A DNA stretch of 64,000 nt from Botryllus schlosseri (Eukaryota): positions 19,530,001 to 19,594,000 of the forward strand of contig CM119375.1 of the NCBI GenBank assembly GCA_051294905.1, read 5' to 3'. Every line of letters begins with the position of its first letter. Position 1 is the first letter of the stretch. Below are positions 24,879 through 57,699 of the stretch, piece by piece. Position numbers and translations under genes: made by a program. Under the pieces are notes generated by a model. The model did not search any database. It worked only from the letters and a program-made list of their open reading frames with translations, and had not been told where the DNA came from.

Positions 24879-25083
24879 TGTGAAATAAGTGCCCGGAGGT
24901 CTAGGCGGCAATAGTTGTTGCACCATAAAATGGGTGTGTAGGAGGATAGTAAGTGTTTTGCATGTACATTGAAATGAGGGTGAAAAAATCGTTAGGTCTG
25001 ATAAGGAACAAGTGAAAAAAATAACCCTGTCATAGGAATAACACGGGATTAAAATAGGAGAGAGTCAGTACACAAAAAACGCC

Positions 25084-25097
25084 AAGAAAAAGGGGGG
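25084..25097 (+). other. Candidate polypurine tract
   Basis: aagaaaaagggggg followed by TT then TG (25100), resembling a retroviral PPT-NN-TG junction. Confidence 0.4.
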
Positions 25098-25184
25098 TTT
25101 GATCCGCTAAAGACGATGGGGAGTTGATCGACACCACATGTCGTATTATTTACTTGCGCAGATACGCGGAAAAGAACATACAAT

Positions 25185-26111
25185 GTGTTGAGTTTGGTCG
25201 AATCGGGTGCATTGCTAAACACACGGGATTGTGTGAAATTTCTGAGAAATCACGGGTTGTTGGTGCGAAGGATGAAATGCAAGCGATGTAAAAAAATAAT
25301 GAAAGAGGAAATTACGTCAACAGGCGATGATGGATTTAGGTGGCGATGCAACCCCTGTGACACTACGGCGACTATACGGAAACACTCGATATTCGCGGGA
25401 AGCAAGGTAGAACTTCCCAAATTATTAATATTGTTCTACTTTTGGTCCCATGACGCGTTGCAAACCCAAATTTCGCATGAAGCTGAGATTAGCCCACGTT
25501 CAACGGTTACCTGGTGCGGCAAATTGCGAAAGCTTTGTACGGCCGAATTTCACAGGAACAAGCGACGTTTGGGAAAGGAAGGCGGTTGCGTAATTATTGA
25601 TGAAACGCACTTAGCCAAGCGCCGGGCTGCCTCTGGTAAAGGACCAGCTGTTAAAGCCATTTGGGGGTTTGGAGGAATAGACAAAGCCACCGGAGAAATG
25701 TTCATTGAAATAACTTCTGACAGAACTGCTGAAGTATTTCGAAAACTCATAGTAGAAAATGTGACAGAGGGGTCCACAATTCTAACCGATGCTTATCCTT
25801 CCTACAAGGGCATAGAGAGCTGGGGGAAGGGTTATATACACGGCGTAGTGGACCACTCCCGATGGTTTAAAGATCCCCGGACAGCTTTTTGTACTAATGA
25901 AATCGAGGGGGCCTGGGGACAGCTTAAATATCACTTACATAGGTCTCGTGGTTTAGCACGTCACCTTTTAGCCGATTACGTAGGGGAGTTTTTGTGGAAA
26001 CGTCAACATCAAAAGACTGACCGATTCTTGGCACTCCTGCGCACCATACACAATGATCCACGGTATAATTTTGACAAATTTGATGGGTCTCCTGTATTAC
26101 CACATTTGTAA
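25185..26111 (+). CDS. Merlin/IS1595 (ISXO2-like) DDE transposase #1
   Basis: CxxC..CxxC Zn ribbon, IIDET / LTDAYPSY / NEIEGAW catalytic triad; no in-frame ATG at the 5' end, splice acceptor at 25160-61. Confidence 0.9.
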   Translation: MLSLVESGALLNTRDCVKFLRNHGLLVRRMKCKRCKKIMKEEITSTGDDGFRWRCNPCDTTATIRKHSIFAGSKVELPKLLILFYFWSHDALQTQISHEAEISPRSTVTWCGKLRKLCTAEFHRNKRRLGKEGGCVIIDETHLAKRRAASGKGPAVKAIWGFGGIDKATGEMFIEITSDRTAEVFRKLIVENVTEGSTILTDAYPSYKGIESWGKGYIHGVVDHSRWFKDPRTAFCTNEIEGAWGQLKYHLHRSRGLARHLLADYVGEFLWKRQHQKTDRFLALLRTIHNDPRYNFDKFDGSPVLPHL

Positions 26112-26240
26112 ACCCCGTTTTAAGGTTCCAGGACGGAAATGACGACATCTGTTGTTTTGTGTTTTTACAGACGGTAGTCTAGGTCTAGTGCGCGATTATA
26201 TTTAGTTTATGACGTGGCGAGAACCACCACTGTCTGTACC

Positions 26241-28757
26241 ATGGACATCCTTCCTTATTCTCTGTCTATCCTTGTTGGTATCATTTGTACGTCTGATTTG
26301 GTGCTGCATACGGCGGCGAAAGGCATGCACGGACTTGCAGATCCTGTAACAAGCAGGGCACGGTCTTTCACTCAGGGGACGCTAGGGGAACTACGGGGAC
26401 CCCTGCCTGAAGAATGGATCACTCTAAATGATACACAATGGGAGGACTATCACTTGATGAGCATTTTCAACAAAACGGCGGAGCGACATGTATATAGACG
26501 GCCTGAACTATTTTACAGCAAGTCATTTGGTTACGTAGTAGCTGAGCGTTTTTCATTACAACAAATGGCGTTTCCACATGGAAGATATTGGACAAGTGTA
26601 CAAGATTTTGAACGCACCTGTCTCTGTCAACGGCGCCTGGGCCAAATCACGCCCAATATTTCCTATGATGTTCTTAAACAAACAAACATGTTCATACGTC
26701 CAATAGGGTATTATAGGATTCGCTGGTTCTGGAGTGGGGACTATTACTGGTATCATGACCTTGGCAGAAATTACTCCATGTTTGCTCTAACCAAATTTAA
26801 ATTGATTATGATACGACTATTCGAAAGTTATTCAGCTGTTGAAGCCTCATGTCTTCAAGAGCCAATGAGAGACGGGGACAAAGAAAAATTAAGTGAATTA
26901 AATAAGTATAATGCCAGTAGCAATAGTTTTACACAATGCTGGCATCTAGTGGATAAAGATTATGCCTCCCATAGTGTTTTTTGGCAACAATACCACTCTT
27001 GGAGGGTAAAAGGGGTCAGAAAAGGAATCTGTACCAGGTGTAATTTTAGAGGAGTGATTTCTGCTCTGGAACCAAATAAGGCAGATATAATCATCCAAGA
27101 AATAGTAATGACTACAATAAGTACATGGCCGTATATGCGCGATAAGTTCATTCCATGCCGGGCCCAGGGGGGATGGATTAATCAGTACTGGTTTGAGCAC
27201 TTCTGGCCTGATGGTGGTGTAATAGCCCATTCGTGCAATTTCTGGCCAGGAATGAATACCACTATATGGGGTGATCTACCAACGACAAATTTTCCTCCCA
27301 GAGTAAAATGGATACAACCGTCTTTTCCAAATTTGGATCACAGTGTGTATGCTAATCGTGGCAATCAGGGCATGAGGTGGAATAACCTTTTTGATGGTGC
27401 GCCGACTAGGTTTAAGGCGTCTACATCAACATGGGTACCTTTTCCCAGGCCTATGTGGAAATTCTTCCCCTCTCTTACTGCATCGGATGAAGCATGTAAA
27501 AATAGAATATCACATAACCAGGATTTGTGCCGCGACCCTGTAGGAGGACGCATTTTGAAGGCAGCCTTTTGGGACCATGTTCATTTTGATCCGGAGCTAA
27601 ACCGACCACGCTTCCCAGGGGGACCAATAGAAATTAAAGGTGAATTGGTATCAAGTAATACCGCCCCACGGGGTACGCGTAGAAGGCGTAAAAGGTTCCT
27701 GTCAGGACTGATATGTCTCGTTTTTGCTGCGATATCAGCGATCGCCGTCGTTGCGACAGTTTCATCCCAGTTACATGAAGAAACATTGGATCTTAGCCGA
27801 CAAATCAATAATAGAATGATACAAGCCACGCAGAGGTCCACTGCACTAGGGAGAAAGATTAACGAACTCTCTCTTCTGCAAATAGCCCAACAACAGAAAC
27901 TGGATCAAACGATCGCTACCATGGAAATGAGGACAACGTTAACAAATAAACGACTTGTACTAATGGAAAAGTACATAGAAAGAAACCGACAAATGATAGT
28001 ACGACAAGCCACAGCATCCCTGACCTCTTTTCAAAACTATAAGGAAATGAGCGAAGCTGAACTGGCCCTTGATCGATTGGTTTTGGACGAGTTGGCTAAT
28101 TTAACTGGCAAGTTAATATTCGACTCCAGCAAAGTATATCTCACAAAAATCCGACAAGGAACGCTGCGGATAAAAGAACACGCTCAGCAATTAATAGCCT
28201 ATAGAGACGCTTACATCAATGAGACGAATGACATTGGGGTAGAGCTACGTGCTAACCGAATCAGTCTAGATCAAGCCCAACAGAGTGTGGATTTGGGTTT
28301 ACAAGTTTGGAGAAAAGATCTAAATAAGAGTGTGTACATGAATATTTCTGATTGGCGATATGAGAATATTACAATTAAGCCTTTCGAATTTGTTGGAGGA
28401 GAAGAATTTATGAATAACTTGGGCCAAACGATAGAAGACATGACACACGGTGTAGGAAGCTTGATAAAATCAGTAGGAGATAGCACAGGAGATCTTCTAC
28501 AAGATGGATTAGGTGCGGTCGGAGGAATATTCAATAAGGGAGTGAGCGGAATTTTTTCCGGCCTGGGGTCTGTTCTAATTCCAGTAATTTTGATATTGGG
28601 GGCCGGGATCGTCTTGTTTTGTGGCTGTCGTTATAGCAGTCTTTGCTGTCCTAAGTTAAAAACTGAGGTACAACGGCGAAACACGAATACTCAGTTGACA
28701 ATGCACATATCATCGGTATCGACCCCCGTTAAAACAGCCAAATCGACAAGAATGTAG
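26241..28757 (+). CDS. env: Class I fusion envelope glycoprotein (Env1), 838 aa from ATG 26241
   Basis: Signal peptide; RRRRKR furin site (27678-27695) followed by hydrophobic FLSGLICLVFAAISAIAVVA; heptad-rich region; Gly-rich membrane-proximal segment; C-terminal TM; several NxS/T sites. Confidence 0.88.
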   Translation: MDILPYSLSILVGIICTSDLVLHTAAKGMHGLADPVTSRARSFTQGTLGELRGPLPEEWITLNDTQWEDYHLMSIFNKTAERHVYRRPELFYSKSFGYVVAERFSLQQMAFPHGRYWTSVQDFERTCLCQRRLGQITPNISYDVLKQTNMFIRPIGYYRIRWFWSGDYYWYHDLGRNYSMFALTKFKLIMIRLFESYSAVEASCLQEPMRDGDKEKLSELNKYNASSNSFTQCWHLVDKDYASHSVFWQQYHSWRVKGVRKGICTRCNFRGVISALEPNKADIIIQEIVMTTISTWPYMRDKFIPCRAQGGWINQYWFEHFWPDGGVIAHSCNFWPGMNTTIWGDLPTTNFPPRVKWIQPSFPNLDHSVYANRGNQGMRWNNLFDGAPTRFKASTSTWVPFPRPMWKFFPSLTASDEACKNRISHNQDLCRDPVGGRILKAAFWDHVHFDPELNRPRFPGGPIEIKGELVSSNTAPRGTRRRRKRFLSGLICLVFAAISAIAVVATVSSQLHEETLDLSRQINNRMIQATQRSTALGRKINELSLLQIAQQQKLDQTIATMEMRTTLTNKRLVLMEKYIERNRQMIVRQATASLTSFQNYKEMSEAELALDRLVLDELANLTGKLIFDSSKVYLTKIRQGTLRIKEHAQQLIAYRDAYINETNDIGVELRANRISLDQAQQSVDLGLQVWRKDLNKSVYMNISDWRYENITIKPFEFVGGEEFMNNLGQTIEDMTHGVGSLIKSVGDSTGDLLQDGLGAVGGIFNKGVSGIFSGLGSVLIPVILILGAGIVLFCGCRYSSLCCPKLKTEVQRRNTNTQLTMHISSVSTPVKTAKSTRM

Positions 28758-28844: not shown

Positions 28845-31800
28845 ATGAATCGTTACCTTAAATTATGGATTGTGCTGGCAGTAGCCTTAACACTACACCG
28901 AGGATATCTTCAAACTCATGGCCAATTATTGCCCCTGTCTGCTATGAGTGTGAGGTTAACATTTAATCTTACAGGATGGACAACGTTCCGGTATCAAGGT
29001 CTCAGATACATCCGCCTTAATCGACTATTCAAATTGAACGAGAGTTGGCCAATAGGTGAAACGGAAAATAATTTTCCAATATACAAAGAGACGCCCAAAT
29101 TTGGTCCAACACGAGCTAGCCAAGATCAATTGTACAAGTTATTTGCACCCTCGGGGTCTGACAAGAGGTATTGGAACAATGTTAGACAATACGAAAGAGA
29201 GTGCGGGTGCAATCGGAAACTATCAAGAATATCTCCCGATATTACTTTGGCAGCCTTTACCAGAACCACAACATATCGTCGAAAGAATAACTTTGGCTTA
29301 GTACATACATGGAAGTATGTGGTAGGAAGGGAAGAACATGGCACTATGGCTGTGCCAGGTCCGATCCTTCGGATGATATCTCCTAATGCTACTCCACAAG
29401 TTACTATACATCAACTGTTGACGGTGTACAAGTTATCAGTGATGAATATCTTGGCACAATATGCAACAGTGACAGCAAGGTGTCAGCAGCGTTTCGAAGA
29501 AATCGCGGGATGGAGAGTCAATAAAGGCGAATTTAACGTATGTGTGCACGGAGAAGACAACCAGATGCAATGCATAGGATGCTCATTTTATACAGAGGAT
29601 CTGGCAGTAAATATACTGTCCAGAGACTTTGTGGTCATGGAAATAGATAATAGCATAAGAGGATTAGGGACGAGAATGCAAGAAACTTATTCCTACAGTC
29701 AATGGCCAGTGGGAGTCAAATTACCCAGATTACATCACGACATCGTGTGGTTGAAGGCTCGAAATGAGACGGGCCCCAGGGAGAGGCCAGCAAACTTTGA
29801 TGGTCATACTTGGTTTAGATTGAGGATTTACGCCCTCCGCGAACATCTGAATAATGATACTCAACGGATAATGGGGAAGAGAAATTTTCCGACTATGTTG
29901 CAAGGCAGCATAGAATGTGAACGTAAAAAAAATCAAAAGGTTTGTCGAAATTCAATAGGAAGTTTAAAGACGGCATTGGCCTTTAAGGAAGTGTTATATG
30001 ATCCATATACAAATCAACCCGTGTATGCAGATCATAGCAATGGTCGGTTACGAATTGCATCTCCAAAACCTGCAGGTCAGGAATCTCCCCTCAAAGCATG
30101 GCCTAAGAGTCTACCCAAGTGTAAACAACCCGGTAGATTAGGCGACTTTATCCTGACTGCATCATTTAAAAGCAATGGGCAAAATACAAGGAATATGGAC
30201 TATTATCTAGCTCGCCTAGGAATGTATTACGTAGAAGCAACAAAACGGCGGTTACGCCAGTTATCTTTGCCCATATATAAAATGCGGAGAAAACTGGGGA
30301 GATTGGACAGGTCCATAACTGGTGAAGAGATGGAGTCTCTAAGTCAGGCGCTACGGTCAGCCTTGACACCTCAGAAACTGAGTAGGATAAATGAAGAATT
30401 ACTGAGCTATATGTCAACACGCAAGCTCATAGAGGTGCAGTTTCATGATATCCGGATATTCCGACCAAGTGTGGCCTACACAGCCACAATATGTGCTGGA
30501 ATATTGGTGTATACGCCTTATGCCTATAAGGACAATAACAAAATCAGAACTAACTCTGAAATGTCATTAAGTACCGCGGAATCAATAACGACAAAGGCTG
30601 TAAATTATGAAGGAACCACTCGAAAAGTACCTTCTAGCTCCGTAATGCCACGAAGTAACGCGGAAGCAATAACGACAAGGACTGTAAGTTACGAAGGAAT
30701 CACTCGAGAAGTGCCTCCTAGTAGCGAGACTGGTATATGGGTTGATATCAATTCTGTTGTAGCGACTCCAGAACCCGCTGTGACACGGGAAAAAACCATA
30801 ACAATTACTGAGGAAAATGTAAGAATGACGAATCAATACGACACTAACCACTATAACTACGATTATATAGAAGGTTACGACGAAGGAATTAGCTATGCCG
30901 GTTATGACGATAATACTAGTTTTCAAGACGCTGGAAATTACTACTACGATTATTATGACAAAGACGGAGAATATAATGTTTTATTAAAACATAGGCCCAT
31001 ACAGATAGCTTATACTACGGATTCTACAAATATTATTGAAACTACAATGGCATTACCAATGATTGAAACTCCAACATCAATTAAAAATACTCAATATACG
31101 ACTGAGTTAACAACAGATACGACAATTTCCACGTCAAAAACGTCTGCACATACGTCAGATAGTATTACGACCACTTTATCCACTGCTGCAATCACACCAT
31201 ATACTGGAGGGTTGACATCGGCTATTGCTATTTCCGAAACGACTTCATCGACATCGCTCCCAGCCATATTGACTACTGTGCATTCCTCACGCGAAGATAA
31301 CACCGGCCCAAGACCAACTACATCTATTATTACATTCTTAACTACGGTGAAAACTGTTCGTGAGCAAGAAAGACGCAGGACGAGTCCCACTGATATTTTC
31401 ACAACTGTGGAACCATCTATGGCTATATCAACAGAGATGGACACTCAGAAAAGCATTGGTATTGCTACGACAGGAGTCACCTTTTCTGAAAGTGGGTTAA
31501 CAACACGTGTACCAATGGCGAGAAGTGTAAAAGCAAGGTTACAATGGAATACCATGACCTATCAAATACCCTCAAAAAATGGTGAAATGTTAGGCTCCTT
31601 ATCCGTGCCAATAAGGAAAACATCCCAAATTACGCAGATACCTGAGTCTTACATACAATTAAGTCATCACGCAAATCAAATCAAGGACACGACACCGCCA
31701 AGAGCGCATTTCAATATGTTGTTTGATACATCACAAGTAGCAACGACAGTTGAAACGCACCAATACTTCGTCACCAGCAAGTCCCGCTCTAATACAGAAC

Positions 31801-32327
31801 CAGATAATTTAAACAAAAAGCAAGATCTACAGGTAAGAACTAAATCAACGTCAATAATTTCATCAGGTGACTATCAGAGCGATCCCACATCAGTAAGTAA
31901 AAATGATGTGATCAGAAGTTGGAAGAGTACTTCCAATAGTGCACTTTCTTCAATTACACCCTCTATCGAAGAAGAAGGAAAAACTACACTCAGTATACCG
32001 CATACCTTACCTACGGCCAGATATGACAGATTGGACCGAATTACATTTGACTTCTATGGACGATTGCACAAACTACACGAAATAGAACAAGGATATGCAT
32101 CAGGTAAAATTATTGTGGATATTAACAATAGAAAGGATTTAGAAGAATCACTTAACAATTATGTCTTGATTTTTGCGGTTAGCGTAACAACAATGGTAGG
32201 ATGTATGTATTTTTGTTATGCGAAATGCGGGAGAGTTGCAGCAAAAAATTATCTTAAAAAGGTTGTTCGGCGGAATAACCAAAAGATGTATATTACAGCA
32301 GTAACATTGCATGAAAAACTGAGATAG
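28845..32327 (+). CDS. Second type I membrane glycoprotein (Env2): Env1-like ectodomain plus Thr/Ser mucin stalk, 1160 aa
   Basis: Signal peptide; motifs shared with the Env1 SU part; ~500-aa T/S-rich region; TM YVLIFAVSVTTMVGCMYFCY; basic tail. Confidence 0.85.
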   Translation: MNRYLKLWIVLAVALTLHRGYLQTHGQLLPLSAMSVRLTFNLTGWTTFRYQGLRYIRLNRLFKLNESWPIGETENNFPIYKETPKFGPTRASQDQLYKLFAPSGSDKRYWNNVRQYERECGCNRKLSRISPDITLAAFTRTTTYRRKNNFGLVHTWKYVVGREEHGTMAVPGPILRMISPNATPQVTIHQLLTVYKLSVMNILAQYATVTARCQQRFEEIAGWRVNKGEFNVCVHGEDNQMQCIGCSFYTEDLAVNILSRDFVVMEIDNSIRGLGTRMQETYSYSQWPVGVKLPRLHHDIVWLKARNETGPRERPANFDGHTWFRLRIYALREHLNNDTQRIMGKRNFPTMLQGSIECERKKNQKVCRNSIGSLKTALAFKEVLYDPYTNQPVYADHSNGRLRIASPKPAGQESPLKAWPKSLPKCKQPGRLGDFILTASFKSNGQNTRNMDYYLARLGMYYVEATKRRLRQLSLPIYKMRRKLGRLDRSITGEEMESLSQALRSALTPQKLSRINEELLSYMSTRKLIEVQFHDIRIFRPSVAYTATICAGILVYTPYAYKDNNKIRTNSEMSLSTAESITTKAVNYEGTTRKVPSSSVMPRSNAEAITTRTVSYEGITREVPPSSETGIWVDINSVVATPEPAVTREKTITITEENVRMTNQYDTNHYNYDYIEGYDEGISYAGYDDNTSFQDAGNYYYDYYDKDGEYNVLLKHRPIQIAYTTDSTNIIETTMALPMIETPTSIKNTQYTTELTTDTTISTSKTSAHTSDSITTTLSTAAITPYTGGLTSAIAISETTSSTSLPAILTTVHSSREDNTGPRPTTSIITFLTTVKTVREQERRRTSPTDIFTTVEPSMAISTEMDTQKSIGIATTGVTFSESGLTTRVPMARSVKARLQWNTMTYQIPSKNGEMLGSLSVPIRKTSQITQIPESYIQLSHHANQIKDTTPPRAHFNMLFDTSQVATTVETHQYFVTSKSRSNTEPDNLNKKQDLQVRTKSTSIISSGDYQSDPTSVSKNDVIRSWKSTSNSALSSITPSIEEEGKTTLSIPHTLPTARYDRLDRITFDFYGRLHKLHEIEQGYASGKIIVDINNRKDLEESLNNYVLIFAVSVTTMVGCMYFCYAKCGRVAAKNYLKKVVRRNNQKMYITAVTLHEKLR

Positions 32328-32631
32328 ATATTGTGAAAATAATTACTGAATTATTGTAAAGGCAGAAGTTAGGGTTGTTATGTGTTGTGTTGTGTTCGGC
32401 CCGTTTTCACGGATTAGAGTCCATGTGAAATTAACTATTAACCTAAATTTAACTCCGTTGAAATAACATAGTTTAAAAAAATCATGCTGTATTTGTTTAT
32501 GGAAGCCTAAAATTGTACGGAATTTGAGAATGTACGAGGCAAATTTGCGGTATTAACGATGATTATACAATGACTATTATTGCGAAATACATAATTGCGA
32601 AATTTTCGGATGGTATTGCTAAGCCAAATCG

Positions 32632-32766
32632 GGATTAAGTAATGCAGTAGTGAGTAAATATGGAAGCGTTAAAAATGGAAGGATTAAGTAATGCAGTAGT
32701 AAGTAAATATGGAAGCATTAAAAATGGAAGGATTAAGTAATGTAGTAGTAAGTAAATATGGAAGCA
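32632..32766. repeat. 49-bp tandem repeat, ~2.7 copies
   Basis: ggattaagtaatgcagtagt(g/a)agtaaatatggaagc(g/a)ttaaaaatggaa starting at 32632, 32681, 32730. Confidence 0.95.
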
Positions 32767-47677: not shown

Positions 47678-48727
47678 ATGAGTAAAATGAACCGAGTGGA
47701 ACTACTAGTATTATGGCTAGGCATGTGTTATGCTATTTATCCGGAAACAATAGAACAAAAGAAGTGTACAATGGATGAAAGACGAACCATGTTATACCCG
47801 GAATGCATGCAAGGAAGCAATTTGGTACTTTGGTGTGACCATTCGAGTTATACAAGAATTCCGGATCCTGACAAGATATACTTGGCAAAATCTTGTCGGA
47901 ACACAATAAAGATATTCATCAACGACAGCTGCCTACGGGAAATAACCAAAGGACAATTGGAAAAATATAAAGACGTAGAGGTGTTGCATTGTGGTTGGAA
48001 TAAAATCCAAACCATACCAGGAGGGGTCTTCTGCAAAAATGAAAAGCTTAGGGAGATAAATTTGATGCGAAACTACATCACACGAATTGAAAAAGAAAGC
48101 TTTGCAGGCTTACACCAACTGGAAAGTTTGTACTTAAGCAGTAATTTGCTGGCGGAAATAGAAGGATCGAAATTTGCAAGCATGGAAAAGTTAAAAAGAT
48201 TATATTTGGACAACAATGTCATAAAGAAACTAAAGAATGGAACATTCATTCATTTACGTCATTTAAGAATACTAGACTTATCAAGAAACGCAATAAGCGC
48301 TATAGAAGAAGGGGCGTTCAAAGGACTGAGGAAACTGGAAACTTTGAACTTGGATGAAAATAAACTGGTGGAATTTGATATGACAATACTTGAATCTTTA
48401 TGTAATTTAGAGAGATTAACGTTGTACTATAATAACTTGCAATATTTTTCTCTGTCCTCCAACATATCGTTCAGATATCTGCATACAATTGATCTTAGTT
48501 ATAATCATGTTAAATTTCTTAATGACTCCCTATTGAGAAAATTACCAGATCTGGAAGTTTTAAAATTAAATAGATATAATAATGAAACACCTACCAGAAG
48601 ACCCTATGTACGTAAACAATCAAGACTATATGATGACGAAATGAAAAGTCTTTCCAATCGTGTGACTATACATTCAAAGTGTACATTTACCGTTATTGTT
48701 TGGCTAGTTATTATTAAACTAATGTAA
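47678..48727 (+). CDS. Intronless secreted/membrane-anchored leucine-rich repeat protein
   Basis: Signal peptide, ~8 LxxLxLxxNxL repeats, N-terminal Cys cap, hydrophobic C-terminus. Confidence 0.9.
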   Translation: MSKMNRVELLVLWLGMCYAIYPETIEQKKCTMDERRTMLYPECMQGSNLVLWCDHSSYTRIPDPDKIYLAKSCRNTIKIFINDSCLREITKGQLEKYKDVEVLHCGWNKIQTIPGGVFCKNEKLREINLMRNYITRIEKESFAGLHQLESLYLSSNLLAEIEGSKFASMEKLKRLYLDNNVIKKLKNGTFIHLRHLRILDLSRNAISAIEEGAFKGLRKLETLNLDENKLVEFDMTILESLCNLERLTLYYNNLQYFSLSSNISFRYLHTIDLSYNHVKFLNDSLLRKLPDLEVLKLNRYNNETPTRRPYVRKQSRLYDDEMKSLSNRVTIHSKCTFTVIVWLVIIKLM

Positions 48728-48831
48728 AAATGATTAAGTATATAAATTAAAAATTGGTGTAATAATTGTAATATGGTACTATGTAACTGAATTTAAATAT
48801 GTTGTATAAAGGATTTACTTAAATTATAAAA

Positions 48832-49338
48832 ATGTGTTTGGGATTACGTTGTGATGATCCAGAAATACAACATACGACATGGATACCCCAAAAAGAAATA
48901 CTAATAGACAATGGATTAAAGTCGCTGAAGTTTCTGTTAACAACATATACATTGACGGATCACTTATGTGATATAATGTATAACGAATCAAATCCACGAC
49001 TACTATATTGGAAACAAAAGTATGGTGTCACCACATACAACAATCATTGGCCTGGGAAACATCTGGTTGAAAATGAGTGGGAAGAAATTTATACAGGAAG
49101 CATTTACCCTGAAAAACCTATACAAATGGCTTTTGCAGAAATTTGCATAAACTGGGTAACAATTTTGAAAAGGGTAAATCCTGAAATGAGGGAATTTCTA
49201 AAAAGGGGAGATTCTGAAAGAGATCTCATAATGTGGATAATCTTTCCGGAAGTTCAGATCTACGCATGGGCAAAGACGCAGGGAATATCATTAAAAGAAG
49301 CCGATTGTCAATTTATGACTTTGAAAGTGCCTGCATGA
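48832..49338 (+). CDS. Hypothetical protein, family X
   Basis: 168 aa; MCLGLRC, NPRLLYWKQ, MWIIFPEVQI. Confidence 0.75.
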   Translation: MCLGLRCDDPEIQHTTWIPQKEILIDNGLKSLKFLLTTYTLTDHLCDIMYNESNPRLLYWKQKYGVTTYNNHWPGKHLVENEWEEIYTGSIYPEKPIQMAFAEICINWVTILKRVNPEMREFLKRGDSERDLIMWIIFPEVQIYAWAKTQGISLKEADCQFMTLKVPA

Positions 49339-49407
49339 AATTTAACTTTCCAATGTTTGTATATACAGAAAACTACTTTTGAAAAGACAATAAAGTTTTA
49401 AATAAAT

Positions 49408-50356
49408 ATGAAGACTAAAGAATCCAGAAAAAGAAAAAAATCTATTCAATCTTGCTCGATGTGGTATAATATCAAGTGAACGAAAATGTATAAAGTTTCT
49501 GCGATCACGGCAACTCCTTGTTCAAAAGGCAACATGTTTTAATTGTGGACAACAAATGAATGAAGAAAAATGCAAAAGAACTATGGATGGATGTAGATGG
49601 AGGTGTCCGGTTTCAAAGTGCAGGACTACCACGTCCATAAGGAAAGGATCACTATTTGAAGGAAGTAAAATAAGACTCACCCAACTTGTAATGATGATTT
49701 ATCTTTGGACCATAGATGTATCTCAACGACAAATAGCTTTTGAAGCACACGTCAGCAAGAGAACAATGGTGAATTGGACCAAGAAACTTCGTAAGATATG
49801 CTCTGTGGAAATGGAAAGAAGAGGTACCCTAATAGGGGGAATATCACAAGGTAAATCACATGTAATTCAAATTGATGAGACGTTTGTGGCCAAAAGAAAA
49901 TTTAATCGTGGAAGAATAATACGCCAACGCTGGGTTTTGGCTGGAATAGATATGAAAACGCGAGAAATGTTTGCAGAATTGGTACCTGAAGAAGGGAGAA
50001 AAACCTCTGTATTATCAGAAATAATTATGAAACACGTAAAAGAGGGATCCACTATATGGACTGATTCATTTGCCAGTTACCGCAAGTTGGAAAGCCTGGG
50101 AATGAATTATAAACATTCAGTAGTTAATCATGATCGCGAATTTGTCACTACAGAAGGCATAAATACACAATTGATCGAGGTGTCTTGGAATTTTTTTAAA
50201 GCTGCTATTAGAAGGCTGAATGGGGTATCAAGATCACTTATTCCTCATTACTTACAGGAGTGGCTCTGGAAAAGAAGGGTGGCCTTGGAGGAAAGGTTTC
50301 AACTATTTTTAGAGATAATTGCTCTTGATCCTAATTTTAGGACACTGGAACATTGA
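49408..50356 (+). CDS. Merlin/IS1595 DDE transposase #2; 5' end appears frameshifted in an A7 run (49434-49440)
   Basis: QIDET / WTDSFASY / QLIEVSW triad; frame of 49556 is open upstream to 49412 and encodes CFNC of the Zn ribbon; ATG 49408 joins it after one A is removed. Confidence 0.85.
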
Positions 50357-50609
50357 AAACAATGTTGGTCACTATGTGCAATATCATTAGAGATGAGAGA
50401 TTTGAATCTTTAGGGAAGCAATAGAGGCATGTATGATAATCTACATGTTTAGAAAACCTATGAAATGTTTCTATTATTGTTGTGTCATAGTGAGTGAATG
50501 TATTACATGTATGTTATATGATATCTAATATCGAGATTTGATGCATTGAAATCTTGAATCAGGATCTTTTATTGTTATTGCACATTATTGTTATATTCGC
50601 AGGGATAAA

Positions 50610-51269
50610 ATGTATCTATCTGAAGTACAGGATCATAATACTGCTATTTTTTGTAAATTAATAAATCAACTAGATAAAATCGACGTGCGAAAAAATGCTG
50701 GATGTCTAAAGTTGCTGATGGATATGTTGAAAAACTTTTTTGAACAAGAACATAATTGGTACAAAAGACAACTTCCATGTGGCGACAGGAAACCCCATGG
50801 AGAAACGCCGGAGGACGAAATTTCTAGTAATACGGACTCTGACGACTCCCAGGATTCTGCCATTGTGAAAGATTCCTCAAGACAACGACTCATAGTATGG
50901 AGTAAACAGACAATACGACCCGATGACGACACATGGACTATAATTACGGAAACTTTGATGGGAGTTGTCCGAAGAATACCTCCCCTATGTATGAGACGAG
51001 TAATATATGAAGTGATACGAGGAGTAATAATGGGCCATACAAGATTGTTAGTATGTGCAAATAGTCTGGCTTATGTTACAGATGCGAATTGCAAATGGAC
51101 TTGGCACAGCCAAACCAACCTAGGAGTAAAAGGTTATATGTCGTTGAGTTCTGATACCTCCGTTATGGATGCATATATATACATATACTCGAAGAAAGTA
51201 GATAAGAAAGCCCAGTCAATGAATCAATATCTGGAAAATTCCTATATTTTGGACATACATCTCCATTAA
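50610..51269 (+). CDS. Hypothetical protein, family Y
   Basis: 219 aa; RRVIYEVIRGVIM, WHSQTNLGVKGY. Confidence 0.75.
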   Translation: MYLSEVQDHNTAIFCKLINQLDKIDVRKNAGCLKLLMDMLKNFFEQEHNWYKRQLPCGDRKPHGETPEDEISSNTDSDDSQDSAIVKDSSRQRLIVWSKQTIRPDDDTWTIITETLMGVVRRIPPLCMRRVIYEVIRGVIMGHTRLLVCANSLAYVTDANCKWTWHSQTNLGVKGYMSLSSDTSVMDAYIYIYSKKVDKKAQSMNQYLENSYILDIHLH

Positions 51270-51508
51270 CTGTTGTCACATATTGACAATTAAATAATGA
51301 CTTTACACCCAATCCATGGAATTTATCGAACCAATGCTAATTTGGAACCTCGAGAAATCTTATATAATGATATTTTTTTTAACAGAATGTTTATGTATTA
51401 TTACTAGAATGTTGGATTGGTATGGTTATATTTAGACATTTTGATCTGTATTATTGAACGCCTGTTCCATCGAAAGCAATTACACCGAGAAGTGACCGAA
51501 TTGAAACT

Positions 51509-53200
51509 ATGGGCATTCTGATGAAAAGAGATCGTGATCCTCCTGGACATAATTGCGTTTATATTCCACCTGGAGATCACCGGGTTGAGTATTACAGACT
51601 TGCAACGTTCAAACATTTTTCGAAAGAAACTCCTGTGATACCGAGCTATCTAGCCGCTGCTGGTTTCTATTGGACAGGATTTCAAGATAGAGTAAGATGT
51701 TACTGCTGTGGCGTATCTGTGGAAAAATGGGTCACTGGAGATGATCCTTTTGATGACAAGTGGCATAAATCTACTTGTGACATGGTGACCATACAACATG
51801 GTTATAACTTGCCTATTTCAAATTGCTCAAGGAGGCTCCTTTTTGAACAAATGAGGTGCCACCTTAACCTTACTACAAGAAGTCAGCAAACTAATCGGAA
51901 TGTGCAAAGACCGACTATCAAAGAGGAAAAATGTCCCTTACCACAAACCGTGTTTGCGAACATTTGTGACCAAGAACATGAGACTTCATTGCGATCAGCA
52001 AATTTGAGGAGTGAACTAGAGAGAAGAAGAACCTTTGACAAATGGCCTTCCTATCCTACTCCATACTTGGTAGGGGAATTGGCAAAACAGGGGTTTTTTT
52101 ACCTGGGAAACCTTGACAGAGCGCAATGTTTTTCATGCTCAGGAGTACTGAGAAATTGGGCACCCACTGATAATGTCCTTGAACAACATAAAAGACATTT
52201 TACAAAATGCAAAATGGCAAATAACGAGTATGCAGGAAATATGCCCTTGACAGACTCCGAGAGAAATCAGGCAGATAATGAACTTAAAATAAAAATTGAA
52301 AGGTTAACTACTAATAGGGGAGAACCTCCGGATCCATCGCCAGAAGAACAACTCCAGTTGGTGGAAAGATTCCCTTGCCTTTACCCGATAAATTTGCATA
52401 TGACATCGTTACAGCAAAGAATATCTTCGTTTAATGAAAAATGGCCCAGGATCCTCGCAACAACGGAACAATTGGCTAAAGCGGGTATGTATTATCTAGG
52501 GGATTCGGACAGGGCGAAATGCTTTTACTGCAATGGAGGATTACAAAACTGGAACTACAATGATGAGCCGTGGACAGAACATGCAAAGTGGTTTCCTGGT
52601 TGTGAATATGTTTTGCAAATGAAAGGTATTGATTTCGTTTTACGACTAAGAGATGAACATCCCAATCTCAATCGACCATCGATAAGGAATGCAATATGTC
52701 TTGATGCACCACGAGAGGAGATACGAAGGAACCATAATCGACCAAGGTTATCTAGACAATACATAAACAGGATGCAACTGGAAGACATGGGATTTACGAG
52801 AGATCAAATAGAAGGAACTATAAATAGACAGATTAATGATCCTTTCTCTACTGGTGATATAATTCAGGATTTACTAGAGACAGTAAATACAATTACCGCC
52901 AGTCCAACGAAAACAACACAACAAGGCGATAGTATATCTGAAAATAATCACGAAGTAAACAACAACAAAGAAACGAAAGAAGCAGCAGTTGCAGAAATAA
53001 TGTCGGTGGATGAGATCGCGCAAAATTTGAAAGAAATACAAGAAGTTGTGCTTTGCAAAAATTGCAAGAGAAACAAAAGTGAAATTACTTTCATACCTTG
53101 TGGACATTTATGTAGTTGTGAAAAATGTGCAACAAATACTGAAAGATGCAACATTTGTGGTGAAACAATACTTGAAAAGATAAAGGTGTATAGAGCTTGA
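51509..53200 (+). CDS. iap: Intronless inhibitor of apoptosis protein (3 BIR + UBA-like + RING)
   Basis: Three R..[T/S]F..W..LA..GF/MY..C..C..W..H..C BIR repeats; C-terminal CxxC..PCGH..C..C..CxxC RING. Confidence 0.95.
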   Translation: MGILMKRDRDPPGHNCVYIPPGDHRVEYYRLATFKHFSKETPVIPSYLAAAGFYWTGFQDRVRCYCCGVSVEKWVTGDDPFDDKWHKSTCDMVTIQHGYNLPISNCSRRLLFEQMRCHLNLTTRSQQTNRNVQRPTIKEEKCPLPQTVFANICDQEHETSLRSANLRSELERRRTFDKWPSYPTPYLVGELAKQGFFYLGNLDRAQCFSCSGVLRNWAPTDNVLEQHKRHFTKCKMANNEYAGNMPLTDSERNQADNELKIKIERLTTNRGEPPDPSPEEQLQLVERFPCLYPINLHMTSLQQRISSFNEKWPRILATTEQLAKAGMYYLGDSDRAKCFYCNGGLQNWNYNDEPWTEHAKWFPGCEYVLQMKGIDFVLRLRDEHPNLNRPSIRNAICLDAPREEIRRNHNRPRLSRQYINRMQLEDMGFTRDQIEGTINRQINDPFSTGDIIQDLLETVNTITASPTKTTQQGDSISENNHEVNNNKETKEAAVAEIMSVDEIAQNLKEIQEVVLCKNCKRNKSEITFIPCGHLCSCEKCATNTERCNICGETILEKIKVYRA

Positions 53201-53329
53201 TGGAGCAGGCAGGACTATTATTTTGTGGCATGAATGCTCTTGATGCATATGTATAATGCATAACGTTACTAGTTACTTTTGCGCGTAAAATTGAACATAT
53301 GATTTTAAAGTATTTTATTCTGTATTAAG

Positions 53330-53785
53330 ATGACTAGAGTATTAGAGAATTGGGAAATTACGCTAGCCAAGAAACAAATTAATGAATACTATGATGAGTT
53401 TGAACAGGAATACCATCATCAAAATTTTGAAATATGGAAAAATACCCCAAAGGAAAAATTCAAACAATTAATAAAGAAATACCTTCATCATTGTTTTGCG
53501 AATGTGACAGAAAAGCTTTTTGATAAGCTTTATGACGCACATAGTGATATTGCTCGCGTTTTTGTTACAAAAGATTTTAATCTGGCCCAATATACATGGT
53601 TTGGACTTGTTCTAAAACTACATCCGGCTCATAAATATCTACCAGAAGAATTTCTGGATGAAAGATTACCACAAATGGAATTGCAAGATTCTACAACATT
53701 ACTTCTAAATGCTCGAGAATTTGAAACTGTTGCTGTTCCAATTTTAGAAGACGCTTTTTCGAAAATTGTTATACTGCACGATTAA
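53330..53785 (+). CDS. Hypothetical protein, family Z subtype A
   Basis: 151 aa; paralog of 55470-55928. Confidence 0.78.
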   Translation: MTRVLENWEITLAKKQINEYYDEFEQEYHHQNFEIWKNTPKEKFKQLIKKYLHHCFANVTEKLFDKLYDAHSDIARVFVTKDFNLAQYTWFGLVLKLHPAHKYLPEEFLDERLPQMELQDSTTLLLNAREFETVAVPILEDAFSKIVILHD

Positions 53786-53790
53786 GAGGA

Positions 53791-54186
53791 ATGTCTCGAA
53801 GAACCATGAGTAACCAGGAAATATTGCAAATGGGACATGAATCTGCAGTGTGCGACTTGAAATATTATTTTGACATGTTTTGTAAATACTATGAAGAAGA
53901 TGTGGAAATTTCCGACAGATGGCAAAGATGGGCTATGACAAGACCCAATGACATTGTTGGAATGCTGACGCTGTATATTGATAAAGTTTATGGGAGTGCT
54001 TTGTCTCCGCAAGGCAAGGCTCGGGGGTATCATGCTGCTATCAAAGAACATAATAGGATTGCAATTATTACACTGGGAAACTATAAGGAAGCCAAATTTC
54101 TTTGGTACCAACATATTGTTCGTATGCATCCCATGAAGGAGAACTTTTCAGAACAATGGATAAAAGGATGTTTGAAAGATGATTAA
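53791..54186 (+). CDS. Hypothetical protein, family Z subtype B
   Basis: 131 aa; paralog of 56094-56543. Confidence 0.78.
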   Translation: MSRRTMSNQEILQMGHESAVCDLKYYFDMFCKYYEEDVEISDRWQRWAMTRPNDIVGMLTLYIDKVYGSALSPQGKARGYHAAIKEHNRIAIITLGNYKEAKFLWYQHIVRMHPMKENFSEQWIKGCLKDD

Positions 54187-54293
54187 CTGAAATGATACAT
54201 AGACTGCACCAAATTTACTATATCTAATATAACAACTAGAATTAAAACTTTTATTTGTGTAGTCATGTTGATTTACTGATTAAGACTTTTTGA

Positions 54294-54818
54294 ATGTTTA
54301 ATAATGTTTGGGTTTTTTGTGTAAGAAATTTTAAGACATTAGGAATTTATTTGACCTTTAATCGTGATATGTTGGAAATCAATTATGAAAAGTACGAATA
54401 TGTGCCCAAAGACCCACAAAAGAAAGAATTGAACCGAAAGAGGTTCAGACCGTGTCTATACCCTACGATACCTGACAGCAGAGTTGCTTGGCTAAAGATG
54501 GGAGTTGTACATGAACGAATAAAAGAAAGAATAGAAAACTTTCCGAAGTTAACAGCCAATGACATGGAGTATGTATTGAAAGACTTTCTTGTCTGGTTAT
54601 ACCGGGACCATGAGGTGGCGGAACAATTGGAATGCGCAAAAAAAGTACTGGAGCGCATTGTGGAAGAAAACTTTGGAGAAAGTCCTGCGTACTATTTGTA
54701 CTTATTTCTACGATATGTATTGGCTATAGCTAATGTTGATGAAGATTGGAACATTACTAGCAGAACTATTGCCGGATTTTCACGTGACATGTACGCTATG
54801 GATAAACGATTGAATTAG
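54294..54818 (+). CDS. Hypothetical protein
   Basis: 174-aa ATG ORF inside the cluster, no recognised motif. Confidence 0.65.
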   Translation: MFNNVWVFCVRNFKTLGIYLTFNRDMLEINYEKYEYVPKDPQKKELNRKRFRPCLYPTIPDSRVAWLKMGVVHERIKERIENFPKLTANDMEYVLKDFLVWLYRDHEVAEQLECAKKVLERIVEENFGESPAYYLYLFLRYVLAIANVDEDWNITSRTIAGFSRDMYAMDKRLN

Positions 54819-54878
54819 TGATGTTCCCCTTTTCTTTTATGTGTGTAAGTTTTATTGGATAGTATAAGTCTGCATCGA

Positions 54879-55334
54879 ATGGCAAAACATAGATTATACG
54901 TTGAACGGCGAAAAATTAATCAAGAAATACGAACAAATCCTGTAATTTTGCAAGCAGGGCCATTGGACGAGTCGGATATCTATGTTTGGCAAGCACTTTT
55001 GCGAGGACCATCAAAAACACCATATGAAAAAGGAACATTTCTTCTTAGAATTGAATTTCCAACGGAATATCCATTCAAGCCTCCGAAGATCAAATTTGAA
55101 ACCAAGATTTTCCATCCGAATATAAGCCGTAAGGGTACCATATGTATTGACATTCTTGCCGATGAATGGTCTCCCGCTTTAACGTTGGGAAAAGTATTGG
55201 TCTCGATTTCGTCATTATTGGCTTCCCCTAACCCAGAAGATCCAATGGATGTTGAGAGCGCCAGACTGTATCGGGATGACTATGAAAGTTATCAGAAGAT
55301 GGCAAGAAACTGGACTGATATGTATGCTAAGTAA
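54879..55334 (+). CDS. Intronless ubiquitin-conjugating enzyme E2 (UBE2D/Ubc4-like)
   Basis: GP..TPYE.G.F...I.FP.EYPFKPPK..F.TKIFHPNI..G.IC(catalytic)IDIL..WSPAL. Confidence 0.95.
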   Translation: MAKHRLYVERRKINQEIRTNPVILQAGPLDESDIYVWQALLRGPSKTPYEKGTFLLRIEFPTEYPFKPPKIKFETKIFHPNISRKGTICIDILADEWSPALTLGKVLVSISSLLASPNPEDPMDVESARLYRDDYESYQKMARNWTDMYAK

Positions 55335-55469
55335 TTACTATGTATCTAGTATGCTTATCACAATTATTGAATATTTTGGAAATGCTGTTATACTTATATG
55401 TATTAAAAATGTTAGCAAGGAAAGTTTCCGGTCCGATAATCAACGTAAAATTTTCTATATTAAGAAAAT

Positions 55470-55928
55470 ATGGGTGAAAAAATTGCTAGAGTAAAGCATG
55501 AACTTGACGTGTTCTTCGATTCATTTGAAAAGAAATATGAACATAAAGATTTCGGCAAGTGGGCTGCAACAACACGGGATGAATTGGAGATATTTATGAC
55601 ACCTTACTTGAGGATTTGCAACCTGAGAGTATCCGACAGACTGTTTGATGCGCTATACAAAAAGCATTTAGCTATCGCCCGCATGATATTGTTTGAAAAT
55701 TATGAACATGCGAAATTTTGTTGGTTCGTCTTCTGTGTTGGATTACATCCTGCCTCAGATGTAATACCTGAAGGATGGGTGTTGGAAAGAATGCCTGACT
55801 CTGATAAAACTGGATTTTGTATCTATACCACGGAAAAACTCTTTTATGATACTTTTCCCTCTGATGTGAGAGCTGCTATACTTATACATAAAATGAAATG
55901 TTATGGCTGTAATAATAATGGACAATGA
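55470..55928 (+). CDS. Hypothetical protein, family Z subtype A
   Basis: 152 aa; FFDSFEKKY, LFDALYKKH, WF....LHPA. Confidence 0.78.
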   Translation: MGEKIARVKHELDVFFDSFEKKYEHKDFGKWAATTRDELEIFMTPYLRICNLRVSDRLFDALYKKHLAIARMILFENYEHAKFCWFVFCVGLHPASDVIPEGWVLERMPDSDKTGFCIYTTEKLFYDTFPSDVRAAILIHKMKCYGCNNNGQ

Positions 55929-56093
55929 ATTCATGGATTGTATATTGTATTTTATGCTAAATCAAAATATCTATTAAAATTATGTATGACATGTATGCCA
56001 ATTTATTGAGTGTTGCATTGAGTTACTTCATTTTCGTCTGCATAACCCAATGGACCCTTATTAGGATTATTAATATTTTTCAGAAAATTAAGT

Positions 56094-56543
56094 ATGAGTA
56101 ACGTGATAATAAATGATAATGGTGACGTTGATGTCACCAGAATGGTGGGCTCCAATGTGGCGGAACAAGATTTGATATTTTATTTTTGGCTATTCAAAGA
56201 ACGATATGAAGCGAGAATACTCCCCTCTCATAGATGGTACGAGTGGTCAAAGACTCCACCCAAATATATCAAACTTGGATTGAAATGTTTTTTCAAACGA
56301 ATTAAAGAAACTCTTTCTGATGAGAAGCCCCTTGTTATTGACTACCAAGGAATACTAGAAAACCATAAAATGATAAGAGACATGGCCTCTGGAAATTATG
56401 AAAAGGCTAAACTTTTGTGGTTCAACTATATGACTCGAATGCATCCTATGGAAAATTTGATCACGGATGAATGGGTGAAGGAACAAGCCGAATCTACGGA
56501 ACCCTTTTATCCTGAGGATACTATAGATGTCTTAGTTCAATGA
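56094..56543 (+). CDS. Hypothetical protein, family Z subtype B
   Basis: 149 aa; GNYEKAKLLWFNYMTRMHPM. Confidence 0.78.
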   Translation: MSNVIINDNGDVDVTRMVGSNVAEQDLIFYFWLFKERYEARILPSHRWYEWSKTPPKYIKLGLKCFFKRIKETLSDEKPLVIDYQGILENHKMIRDMASGNYEKAKLLWFNYMTRMHPMENLITDEWVKEQAESTEPFYPEDTIDVLVQ

Positions 56544-56823
56544 GAAATATTAAGCCCAGGAATGCTATTGTTTTCATGTATGTATATAAAGTGTTATAAC
56601 TGACCTACGGAATATAGAATGGTCAAGAATCTCTATTGCGTCTTGCATAGAGTCATTTTATTGTATTTTGTTGCACAGAAAATTGATTCCGTCACGTTCA
56701 CGGTTTATTGAGTGGTTTGGTCAACCTATATTCAGAAATGTTTTACAGTTTGTACGGATTATTGCTGCTTTGCTAACTGCGAATGAATTTAATACTGTGG
56801 GGCCTCGTCATCCCTACAGTATG

Positions 56824-57675
56824 TATATAAGGCGTTATACACTGCTACGCCCTTATTTTTAAGCAGGACCCTAGGGATTGAAGCCCTAGTTTTAGGGAAA
56901 CAAAATCCGAAGTTTACGGTGCGAACCCTTATTATAGGCTAAATAAATAATTAATGAAAAACAATATAAAATCTTATAAAATCTTGAACAACTAAACCAT
57001 TAAATTAACTAAATAATGAACACTAAAACCTGTTTGAACAATCTGCAATGCCTGTATTAAGTGGCATCTAAGTTAAGGGTAGTATCATGCGGTCCGATTA
57101 AGAGGATCATAGTGATTATAATTGCACTGAAGACATGACGTCCTTAATGTTGATATGTTATATTAAAATTGATTGAAACATTATAATCGCAAGTATACTG
57201 AAGAATATTATGATGAATAGGAATTGATATTTGAAATGCATTGATATTTACGGCAGGAAAGGCCGTCGCATCAATTATATGCGAAAACAAACCTTGGAGT
57301 ATTAAAAATGTTTATTAATTGTGTATGATGATGTATAGGTTAAACATGCCTTGTGTTATAATTGATGGATGATGTGTATGCCAATTTTAACCAAGCTTTG
57401 CATAGAGTTACCACATTTCCGTCTGCGCAATTAACTGATTGGAGTATTTGGTTGTATTAAGATTATCAGTAGATAAAGGTAGATTAAAATTCTGGACCCC
57501 AGGGTCATTGTCAACTTGAGAAGAAACAATCCTACAACTGTTGTTGCTCCAATCACCATTTACAGACGTCGTCAAGATATTAAAGCAAACGAAAGGCAAC
57601 GCTTTACTAGGAAGTAACCCGAACAAGTGTGGACTACTCGCATGACAATCGTTGTGGAGCTGCACTATAAAAACA
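56824..57675 (+). promoter_or_regulatory. Candidate LTR core (end of U3, R, U5): TATA 56824-31, AATAAA 56942-47, terminal ...AAAACA 57675
   Basis: TATA, poly(A) signal and CA end in canonical order immediately before the PBS. Confidence 0.6.
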
Positions 57676-57679
57676 AAAT

Positions 57680-57699
57680 TGGTGGCCAGTACGGGGATC
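57680..57699 (+). promoter_or_regulatory. Primer binding site complementary to tRNA-Ile(AAU) 3' end
   Basis: tggtggccagtacggggatc is the reverse complement of GATCCCCGTACTGGCCA+CCA; 4 nt after the CA. Confidence 0.9.

What the first reader, a model, noticed from the sequence alone, without database searches (positions are those of the whole stretch)
24879..57699. Giant gene-carrying LTR: env and ~15 accessory genes lie upstream of the PBS-gag-pol unit
Seen: from a TGT at a host MITE breakpoint (24879) to a CA (57675) plus tRNA-Ile PBS there are 32,797 bp of same-strand sequence, containing two envelope genes and an accessory cluster but no gag/pol and no repeat of either end. Known: in LTR elements the sequence directly 5' of the PBS is the LTR, and env normally follows pol. 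Inference: this block is a ~33-kb U3-R-U5. If duplicated at the right end, the element would be at least ~72 kb, well above the ~25-35 kb Ogre/Burro-class giants. It would be a retroelement with the cargo of a large DNA virus. Alternatives are a tandem or 1-LTR-circle integration, or an ordinary Ty3 nested in an unrelated cargo element.
Basis: partly seen in the sequence, partly recalled or inferred. Interest (0 to 1): 0.97.

Follow-up and report, generated by a model that had tools for sequence, protein, structure and literature searches.

The report
Prophage-like enveloped retroelement with transposase ends
A 40-kb mobile element in a sea-squirt-type genome carries retrovirus-like genes but no integrase and is inserted by DNA-transposon ends; it likely copies itself through RNA into a ring that its own transposase would open and paste in, much as a prophage does, which would be a new way for a retrovirus-like element to live.

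Summary
The giant-LTR reading is refuted. The block is the left part of a 39,763-bp element (24873 to 635 bp past the window) that ends 265 bp after pol, with no second copy. It has Merlin/IS1595-type inverted ends and an 8-bp target duplication (24 of 26 copies). It encodes two IS1595 transposases, two envelope-like proteins, 14 further accessory ORFs, gag, and a pol ending in a Tpt1 domain where integrase should be. The host spliced leader sits 218 nt before a tRNA-Ile primer site. Near-identical copies differ mostly at the leader's 5' edge (18 of 20 pairs) and the primer site's 3' edge (21 of 27), where reverse transcription switches template. A sister family (5 of 5 with target duplications) has the same gene ring opened elsewhere: gag-pol-transposase-env. 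Best reading (0.65): a ~40-kb RNA is reverse-transcribed into a one-LTR ring, which the transposase opens and inserts. No ring junction was seen in reads, and linkage support is weak. Earlier scan notes found this family on other DNA of this genome; ten literature searches found no description.

The parts
24865..24872 (.). left target-site duplication (8 bp; repeated at L001:636-643)
24873..24896 (+). left terminal inverted repeat, starts GG; 17 of 24 identical to the right one, which ends at L001:635, 635 bp past the window
25084..25097 (+). polypurine-tract candidate; a second purine tract lies about 105 nt inside the right end; role untested
   Evidence: no variation among close copies
25272..26111 (+). 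transposase 1, IS1595/Merlin type, D-D-E positions intact
   Evidence: PF12762 E 7e-10; alignment; pN/pS 0.13
26241..28757 (+). env1: signal peptide, polybasic cleavage site, hydrophobic fusion-peptide-like stretch, long helices, membrane anchor; likely class I fusogen
   Evidence: sequence and alignment; weak leads to spike and F proteins; model unreliable
28845..32327 (+). gp2: second membrane glycoprotein, N-terminal part related to env1, Thr/Ser-rich stalk
   Evidence: blastp 23%, E 9e-9
32328..42433 (.). ORF-poor variable stretch; holds a host-type repeat insert (41309-42050) shared by 11 of 21 copies
42434..56543 (+). accessory cluster of 15 single-exon ORFs, including an LRR protein (47678-48727), IAP with 3 BIR + RING (51509-53200), a ubiquitin-conjugating enzyme (54879-55334) and four paralogous ~150-aa ORFs
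   Evidence: pN/pS 0.14-0.36
49556..50356 (+). transposase 2, IS1595/Merlin type, 39-40% identical to transposase 1; the spliced leader is joined at the acceptor at 49368 in 3 RNA reads
57438..57461 (+). DNA copy of the host 24-nt spliced leader; likely the 5' end of the genomic RNA (start of R)
   Evidence: reads start here behind the template-switch adaptor; listed as the chordate leader in PMC3795323; junction variation
57462..57679 (+). R-U5-like leader ending CA-AAAT
57680..57697 (+). primer-binding site for tRNA-Ile(AAT); its 3' edge is hypervariable among copies
58006..60822 (+). gag with zinc knuckle
   Evidence: PF00098 E 5e-4
60915..64000 (+). pol: protease-like motif, RT (YIDD), RNase H; continues to L001:370 with a Tpt1/KptA domain; no integrase

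Best explanation
This is a 39.8-kb integrase-less retroelement with transposase-type ends that likely replicates through a ring: a predicted ~40-kb RNA starting at the spliced leader would be reverse-transcribed into a one-LTR DNA circle, which its own Merlin-type transposase would cut at the joined inverted repeats and insert with an 8-bp duplication. Steps: (1) SHOWN: the unit inserts with inverted ends and 8-9-bp duplications and encodes DDE transposases but no integrase. (2) SHOWN as sequence pattern, INFERRED as cause: copies vary most at the two template ends of LTR-type reverse transcription, the leader's 5' edge and the PBS's 3' edge. (3) INFERRED: both transfers can only be completed if the template runs leader-PBS-gag-pol-[right end|left end]-transposase-env-accessory-leader, so the integrated form is a circular permutation of the RNA, as a prophage is of its virion DNA. 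(4) INFERRED: an integrated copy must first be re-closed into a DNA circle by the transposase to be transcribed across its joined ends. (5) PARTLY SHOWN: downstream ORFs are cut out of polycistronic RNA by host leader trans-splicing. (6) INFERRED: Gag, env1 and gp2 would package the RNA into enveloped particles, and IAP, E2 and LRR would act on host defence.
For: Ends: TSD in 24 of 26 copies (23 exact, 1 with one mismatch). No integrase: pol ends in Tpt1, and none of the 8 close homologs from other assemblies carries an integrase Pfam. RT footprints: among pairs with flanks at most 2% apart, 21 of 27 differ at the PBS edge (1.5 expected) and 18 of 20 at the leader edge (1.0 expected); 10 PBS-edge alleles in 25 copies. 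The leader is exact in 12 of 12 sampled genomic hits by search design, at least 7 of them heading gag genes down to 36% identity while the flanks diverge. This copy lacks the 7 nt that follow the leader in most copies, ending at an AG, as a trans-spliced and reverse-transcribed RNA would. Permutation: family C has the order left end-accessory-leader-gag-pol-transposase-env1-gp2-right end, with the same right tip and TSDs in 5 of 5 fetched copies. Copy B1 (pol then transposase) is sister to B2 (transposase at the left end) in the RT tree, so the opening site moved at least twice while ring order stayed. Deleted derivatives keep about 190 nt before the leader, the leader and the PBS (5 loci, plus L040). 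All 20 ORFs are under purifying selection, pN/pS 0.13-0.44. Copies are mosaics, and linkage decay fits best when the ring is opened at the leader (rho -0.49 against -0.13; best of 20 openings).
Against: No right-end-to-left-end junction was seen: 0 exact tandem junctions in the genome, and none among the joints listed for 4 contig sets (53 joints not shown, flank repeats dominated). The linkage signal, corrected for bin effects, holds with all 21 copies (0.30 against 0.19) but vanishes when 5 young near-copies are dropped (0.035 against 0.046). The PBS edge is not the only hot spot: it ranks 4th among local peaks of 30,859 windows and in the top 0.3% among six young copies, with 10 windows higher (insertions not counted, leader edge not scorable there). 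Pairs are not independent. The PPT candidate shows no variation (0 of 49 pairs) and is degenerate in older copies. With three blocks only two ring orders exist, so conserved ring order alone is weak. gag-pol RNA depth is at most 3 per bin in the three raw RNA runs. A 40-kb RT template exceeds Burro (over 30 kb; PMC6431247). Circle formation by Merlin transposases is not documented in the paper read (0 hits for 'circular').
Confidence: 0.65

Rival explanations
1. A giant Merlin DNA transposon moves as DNA by cut-and-paste and carries an integrase-less retrovirus as cargo; RT acts only now and then, refreshing copies by cDNA recombination.
For: Ends, TSDs and transposases are pure Merlin. No junction molecule was seen. 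Host-type DNA repeats inside the element are propagated. Linkage evidence for a ring is weak.
Against: DNA-only copying predicts identical junctions in sister copies, but 21 of 27 and 18 of 20 close pairs differ. gag and pol are as constrained as the transposases. Derivatives that lost RT keep leader and PBS. Variation at the PBS 3' edge needs a completed plus-strand transfer, hence a ring-shaped cDNA.
Confidence: 0.18
2. The ring exists only as cDNA: two RNAs from a linear provirus (leader-gag-pol, and the 33-kb block ending in R) are co-packaged, RT jumps between them, and the transposase cuts the element out of the product.
For: It needs no excised DNA circle. Trans-splicing at the leader would split one long transcript into these two RNAs. 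A pile of single-cell reads lies just before the leader (mean depth 136 and 46 against at most 7 in upstream bins), though many come from related families.
Against: Both RNAs would have to include the terminal repeats to the last base, and the second jump has no homology. With all 21 copies, linkage breaks at the leader more than at the ends (weak).
Confidence: 0.13
3. One reading: a 33-kb LTR at both ends of a 72-kb LTR retrotransposon.
For: The block lies directly 5' of a true PBS and ends in CA; a PPT-like tract lies near its left end.
Against: No second copy after pol in 12 of 12 right-flank loci. No integrase. Inverted ends with 8-9-bp TSD around block plus gag-pol in 24 of 26 copies.
Confidence: 0.02

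Closest known systems
Merlin superfamily / IS1595 family DNA transposons (PMC8101967, passages read)
   Same: Inverted ends of about 24 bp starting GG, 8-9-bp TSD, DDE_Tnp_IS1595 transposase
   Different: 40 kb, two transposases, plus gag, RT-RNase H, PBS, envelope-like and accessory genes; RT-type junction variation
Teratorn, piggyBac fused to an alloherpesvirus (PMC10175614, passages read)
   Same: A virus-like gene set integrated by a cut-and-paste transposase; excision and circularisation proposed there too, not shown
   Different: Teratorn is a 180-kb DNA virus; here the viral partner is reverse-transcribing and the transposase is Merlin-type
Envelope-bearing Ty3/gypsy elements (Metaviridae), including Burro and Ogre (PMC6431247, passages read)
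   Same: gag, PR-RT-RH, tRNA PBS, env; Burro also carries BIR and ubiquitin-related domains
   Different: No integrase, no second LTR, 8-9-bp TSD, permuted gene order, larger; RT on its own long branch
Caulimoviridae (plant pararetroviruses; properties recalled)
   Same: tRNA-primed RT without integrase, ring-shaped product; the best PDB match of the RT is 8r0s 'Enzymatic polyprotein', recalled as cauliflower mosaic virus
   Different: They do not integrate actively, have no envelope or transposase, and are about 8 kb
DIRS-like tyrosine-recombinase retroelements (mechanism recalled; named in PMC11673190)
   Same: LTR-type RT, no integrase, another enzyme inserts a circular intermediate
   Different: No tyrosine recombinase found here; DDE transposase, inverted ends with TSD, protease motif, envelope-like genes
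Kuafuorterviruses (PMC11673190, main text read through the discussion)
   Same: Divergent animal RT lineage
   Different: They are 5-6 kb with two LTRs, integrase and IADD/VADD/LADD; this element has YIDD and none of those

Membership tests
Merlin/IS1595 | terminal inverted repeats of 24 bp or more starting GG | tested here: met
   17 of 24 identical, GG at both ends
Merlin/IS1595 | 8-9-bp target-site duplication | tested here: met
   24 of 26 copies; family C 5 of 5
Merlin/IS1595 | DDE_Tnp_IS1595 transposase with catalytic residues | tested here: met
Merlin/IS1595 | single transposase gene | tested here: not met
   two transposases among 20 constrained ORFs
Merlin/IS1595 | moves as DNA without an RNA step | tested here: inconclusive
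   junction variation points to RT; controls show other hot spots
Metaviridae (Ty3/gypsy) | two direct LTRs | tested here: not met
Metaviridae (Ty3/gypsy) | integrase after RNase H | tested here: not met
   Tpt1 domain then stop
Metaviridae (Ty3/gypsy) | gag, PR-RT-RH and tRNA primer site | tested here: met
   protease seen as a DTGS motif only, no Pfam hit in this copy
Metaviridae (Ty3/gypsy) | 4-6-bp TSD | tested here: not met
   8-9 bp
Metaviridae (Ty3/gypsy) | RT nests inside the family | tested here: inconclusive
   12 rows on a long branch apart from 37 Ty3-type rows; quick tree, midpoint root, no other RT families included
Caulimoviridae | RT-RH without integrase | tested here: met
Caulimoviridae | circular DNA in particles | not testable with these tools
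   no raw DNA reads were offered; contig lay inconclusive
Caulimoviridae | no active integration | tested here: not met
   precise ends with TSD
DIRS-like elements | tyrosine recombinase | tested here: not met
   no such Pfam hit among the 21 element ORFs scanned or the pol tail; short ORFs in 32-42 kb not scanned
Kuafuorterviruses | two LTRs, integrase, IADD/VADD/LADD motif | tested here: not met
   YIDD; features

The most novel reading that the evidence does not exclude
A new order-level group of animal reverse-transcribing viruses with a prophage-like cycle: a ~40-kb enveloped RNA genome, larger than any described RT-virus genome I found, capped by the host spliced leader, reverse-transcribed into a ring, and both integrated and re-excised by a Merlin transposase that replaced integrase. 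The opening site can move around the ring.
Probability: 0.5. Interest if true: 0.96.

Novelty: categorically new. Interest (0 to 1): 0.9.

Why it matters
It joins class I and class II transposition in one obligate unit: RT makes the copy and a cut-and-paste transposase inserts it. If the ring model holds, a retroelement can be stored in permuted, silent form and must be excised to be expressed as a genome, like a temperate phage. It would also raise the size limit of RT templates to about 40 kb and show integrase to be replaceable. The DNA-encoded host leader ties the cycle to trans-splicing. LTR finders would miss the whole group, since it has one LTR-like region and inverted ends. Related pol and env proteins occur in other assemblies, so the group is probably wider than this genome.

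Tried and rejected
Search for a 3' LTR or integrase right of pol: none. Tandem right-left junction in the genome: 0 exact matches, a lower bound. Junction in four contig sets: not among the listed joints, inconclusive because host repeats in the flanks dominated. No RNA holder on record in the run index. Back-joints from an element-specific leader: only the leader itself joined to the acceptor at 49368, so host trans-splicing explains it and it does not prove a circle. Close relatives with DNA context: none in viral contigs; metagenome hits only 22-27% identical and not used. Rfam: 0 matches. env1 structure: mean pLDDT 36.5, not used for a fold search; the second fold job had not finished at the last poll. 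Atlas hits score under 0.9 and are leads only; PDB profile hits have E of 0.23 or more. Host UBC gene with introns as a retrocopy control: not identifiable, most hits were single-exon. Ends of copy B1: left end not found. Solo-LTR screen: of 10 extra loci, 8 continue from the pre-leader region into U5 and gag-side sequence, and 2 (L267, L270) stop matching after the leader and were not resolved. Linkage test: supportive with 21 copies, not with 16. Dropped before the linkage counts: C16s, C10f, C1d, C2b, C10b. Literature: 10 searches, no description of this combination; the library lacks most subscription papers and Repbase. The Kuafuortervirus supplement was listed but not read. I found no paper to cite for errors at RT template ends or for the m1A58 stop: these are recalled, and PMC3185545 gave only passages on non-templated addition and on deletions next to the PBS.

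Full report
OBSERVATION. The window is G000:C5:19530001-19594000. The block holds same-strand ORFs as described. Pfam shows two IS1595-type transposases (25272-26111, 49556-50356), LRR, IAP and a ubiquitin-conjugating enzyme, then gag and RT-RNase H. Comparison with other copies puts the left end at 24873. Right of the window, pol ends at L001:370 in a Tpt1/KptA domain (E 4e-11), and copies stop aligning at L001:635. Total length is 39,763 bp. The 8 bases left of 24873 recur right of the end, and an intact copy of the interrupted host repeat has them once. The terminal 24-mers are inverted, start with GG and match at 17 of 24. No part of the block recurs in the 60 kb to the right. The 72-kb giant-LTR model is therefore wrong for the integrated form.

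FAMILY. Of 26 copies read at both ends, 24 have an 8-9-bp duplication and 23 are 34-52 kb long. These are the Merlin marks given in PMC8101967 (passages). All 20 ORFs tested have pN/pS of 0.13-0.44, gag and pol (0.19, 0.21) much like the transposases (0.13, 0.15). Eight pol homologs from other assemblies (40-52% identical) also lack an integrase Pfam, and five carry the Tpt1 Pfam. With four copies from this genome they form a 12-row clade on a long branch apart from 37 Ty3-type rows (quick tree, no other RT families). env1 has a signal peptide, a polybasic site before a hydrophobic stretch, long helices and a membrane anchor. It has 54 relatives among cluster representatives; the 10 looked up carry no name. 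A class I fusogen is likely but unproven.

SPLICED LEADER. In RNA runs thousands of reads start at 57437-57438 behind the template-switch adaptor and run on unlike after about 57466. So 57438-57461 is the host's trans-spliced leader. PMC3795323 lists it as the chordate consensus (one passage); that it belongs to stolidobranch ascidians is recalled. It sits 218 nt before the PBS here and heads related families too. Three reads join it to the acceptor at 49368 before transposase 2, so at least one internal ORF is expressed by trans-splicing. The PBS matches a host tRNA-Ile(AAT) gene over 18-20 nt.

DOES THE UNIT PASS THROUGH RNA? LTR-type reverse transcription has two template ends, the RNA 5' end and the tRNA stop at the PBS 3' edge, and both are error-prone (recalled; PMC3185545 passages mention non-templated addition and deletions next to the PBS). 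Copies vary at these places. There are 10 alleles among 25 copies at the PBS edge and 10 among 24 at the leader edge. Pairs with flanks within 2% differ in 21 of 27 and 18 of 20 cases, against 1.5 and 1.0 expected. The PBS edge tops 225 nearby windows. Element-wide it is fourth among peaks of 30,859 windows and in the top 0.3% among six young copies, so it is extreme but not unique, and the pairs are not independent. This copy lacks 7 nt after the leader, up to an AG, as a trans-spliced RNA would; a microhomology deletion could do the same. Deleted derivatives keep about 190 nt before the leader, the leader and the PBS, which a DNA-only derivative would not need.

WHY A RING. Minus-strand transfer links the leader to the sequence before it, which is the end of the accessory block. 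Plus-strand transfer requires the minus strand to come round to the PBS through pol and gag. With no LTR after pol, the template must continue from pol across the joined ends into the block (inference). The genome offers independent support. Searches with transposase 1 and the Tpt1 domain show 7 places where pol is followed within about 250 nt by transposase 1. Five family-C copies were read: left end, accessory genes, leader, gag, pol, transposase 1, env1, gp2, right end, 38-44 kb, with the same right tip and 8-bp duplications (4 exact, 1 with one mismatch). The sixth family-C copy was not fetched. This is the retroviral order with the transposase where integrase would be, and it is the family-A ring opened at another point. 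Copy B1 has this order while its RT sister B2 has the family-A order; B1's left end was not found. Copies are recombinant mosaics. Linkage decay fits best when the ring is opened at the leader (rho -0.49 against -0.13). After bin effects this holds for 21 copies (best opening in 30 of 40 subsamples) but not for 16, so I count it as weak.

WHAT IS MISSING. No joined-end molecule was found in the genome or in four contig sets (inconclusive). The plus-strand primer is unproven: purine tracts lie near both ends. gag-pol expression is low in the runs laid. Particles are untested. Whether the ring forms first as excised DNA or only as cDNA from two RNAs is open.

COMPARISON. By its ends it works like Merlin; by its core like an envelope-bearing Ty3 element; by its predicted ring like caulimoviruses or DIRS elements (both recalled); by its logic like Teratorn (PMC10175614 passages). 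It fails defining features of each family. Ogre reaches 25 kb, Burro over 30 kb and Terminons 40 kb. Kuafuorterviruses have integrase and two LTRs. Ten searches found no description; subscription papers and Repbase were not searchable. Earlier notes of this scan describe the same family on other DNA of this genome; they are not independent evidence. The permuted sister family and the junction footprints were not in the lines shown.

VERDICT. Observation partly confirmed; giant LTR refuted; a transposase-integrated, integrase-less retrovirus-like element is shown. Ring replication 0.65, DNA transposon with retro cargo 0.18, two-RNA ring 0.13, giant LTR 0.02. Interest 0.9.

Noticed in passing
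window 57462-57505 and L041-L052: After the leader many copies have a GT, an Sm-site-like stretch (label recalled) and a conserved short hairpin, resembling a spliced-leader RNA gene; the element might supply its own splice donor. The true host leader gene was not identified.
   Followed up: partly
L092 (two leaders about 1.8 kb apart with identical flanks); similar pairs: Other small elements seem to carry the leader in both of two direct repeats; 236 exact leader copies in the genome.
   Followed up: no
window 55977-56040, 56643-56656, 57360-57411: A motif is repeated upstream of the last accessory ORF and of the leader; possible promoter or 3'-end signal.
   Followed up: partly
family C: L150, L157, L160, L166, L182: The leader is followed by 11, 4, 0, 0 and 1 extra letters matching its own 3' end, and copies of one family use two different primer-site sequences.
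   Followed up: partly
genome-wide: 112 matches to the element's ubiquitin-conjugating enzyme, most single-exon: a tandem cluster on C1 near 34.1-34.5 Mb and sets of identical dispersed copies, probably in other mobile elements.
   Followed up: no
P0161/P0005 and P0163/P0008: env and pol homologs from other assemblies have equal longest-contig lengths (1,287,913; 246,134), suggesting linkage in distant relatives.
   Followed up: partly
L272:2199-2919 and window 41309-42050: The same host-type repeat sits inside pol of a deleted copy and in the ORF-poor stretch of 11 of 21 long copies.
   Followed up: partly
window 17892-18347: Host immunoglobulin-domain exon; the element lies among host repeats, probably in an intron or intergenic stretch.
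   Followed up: no
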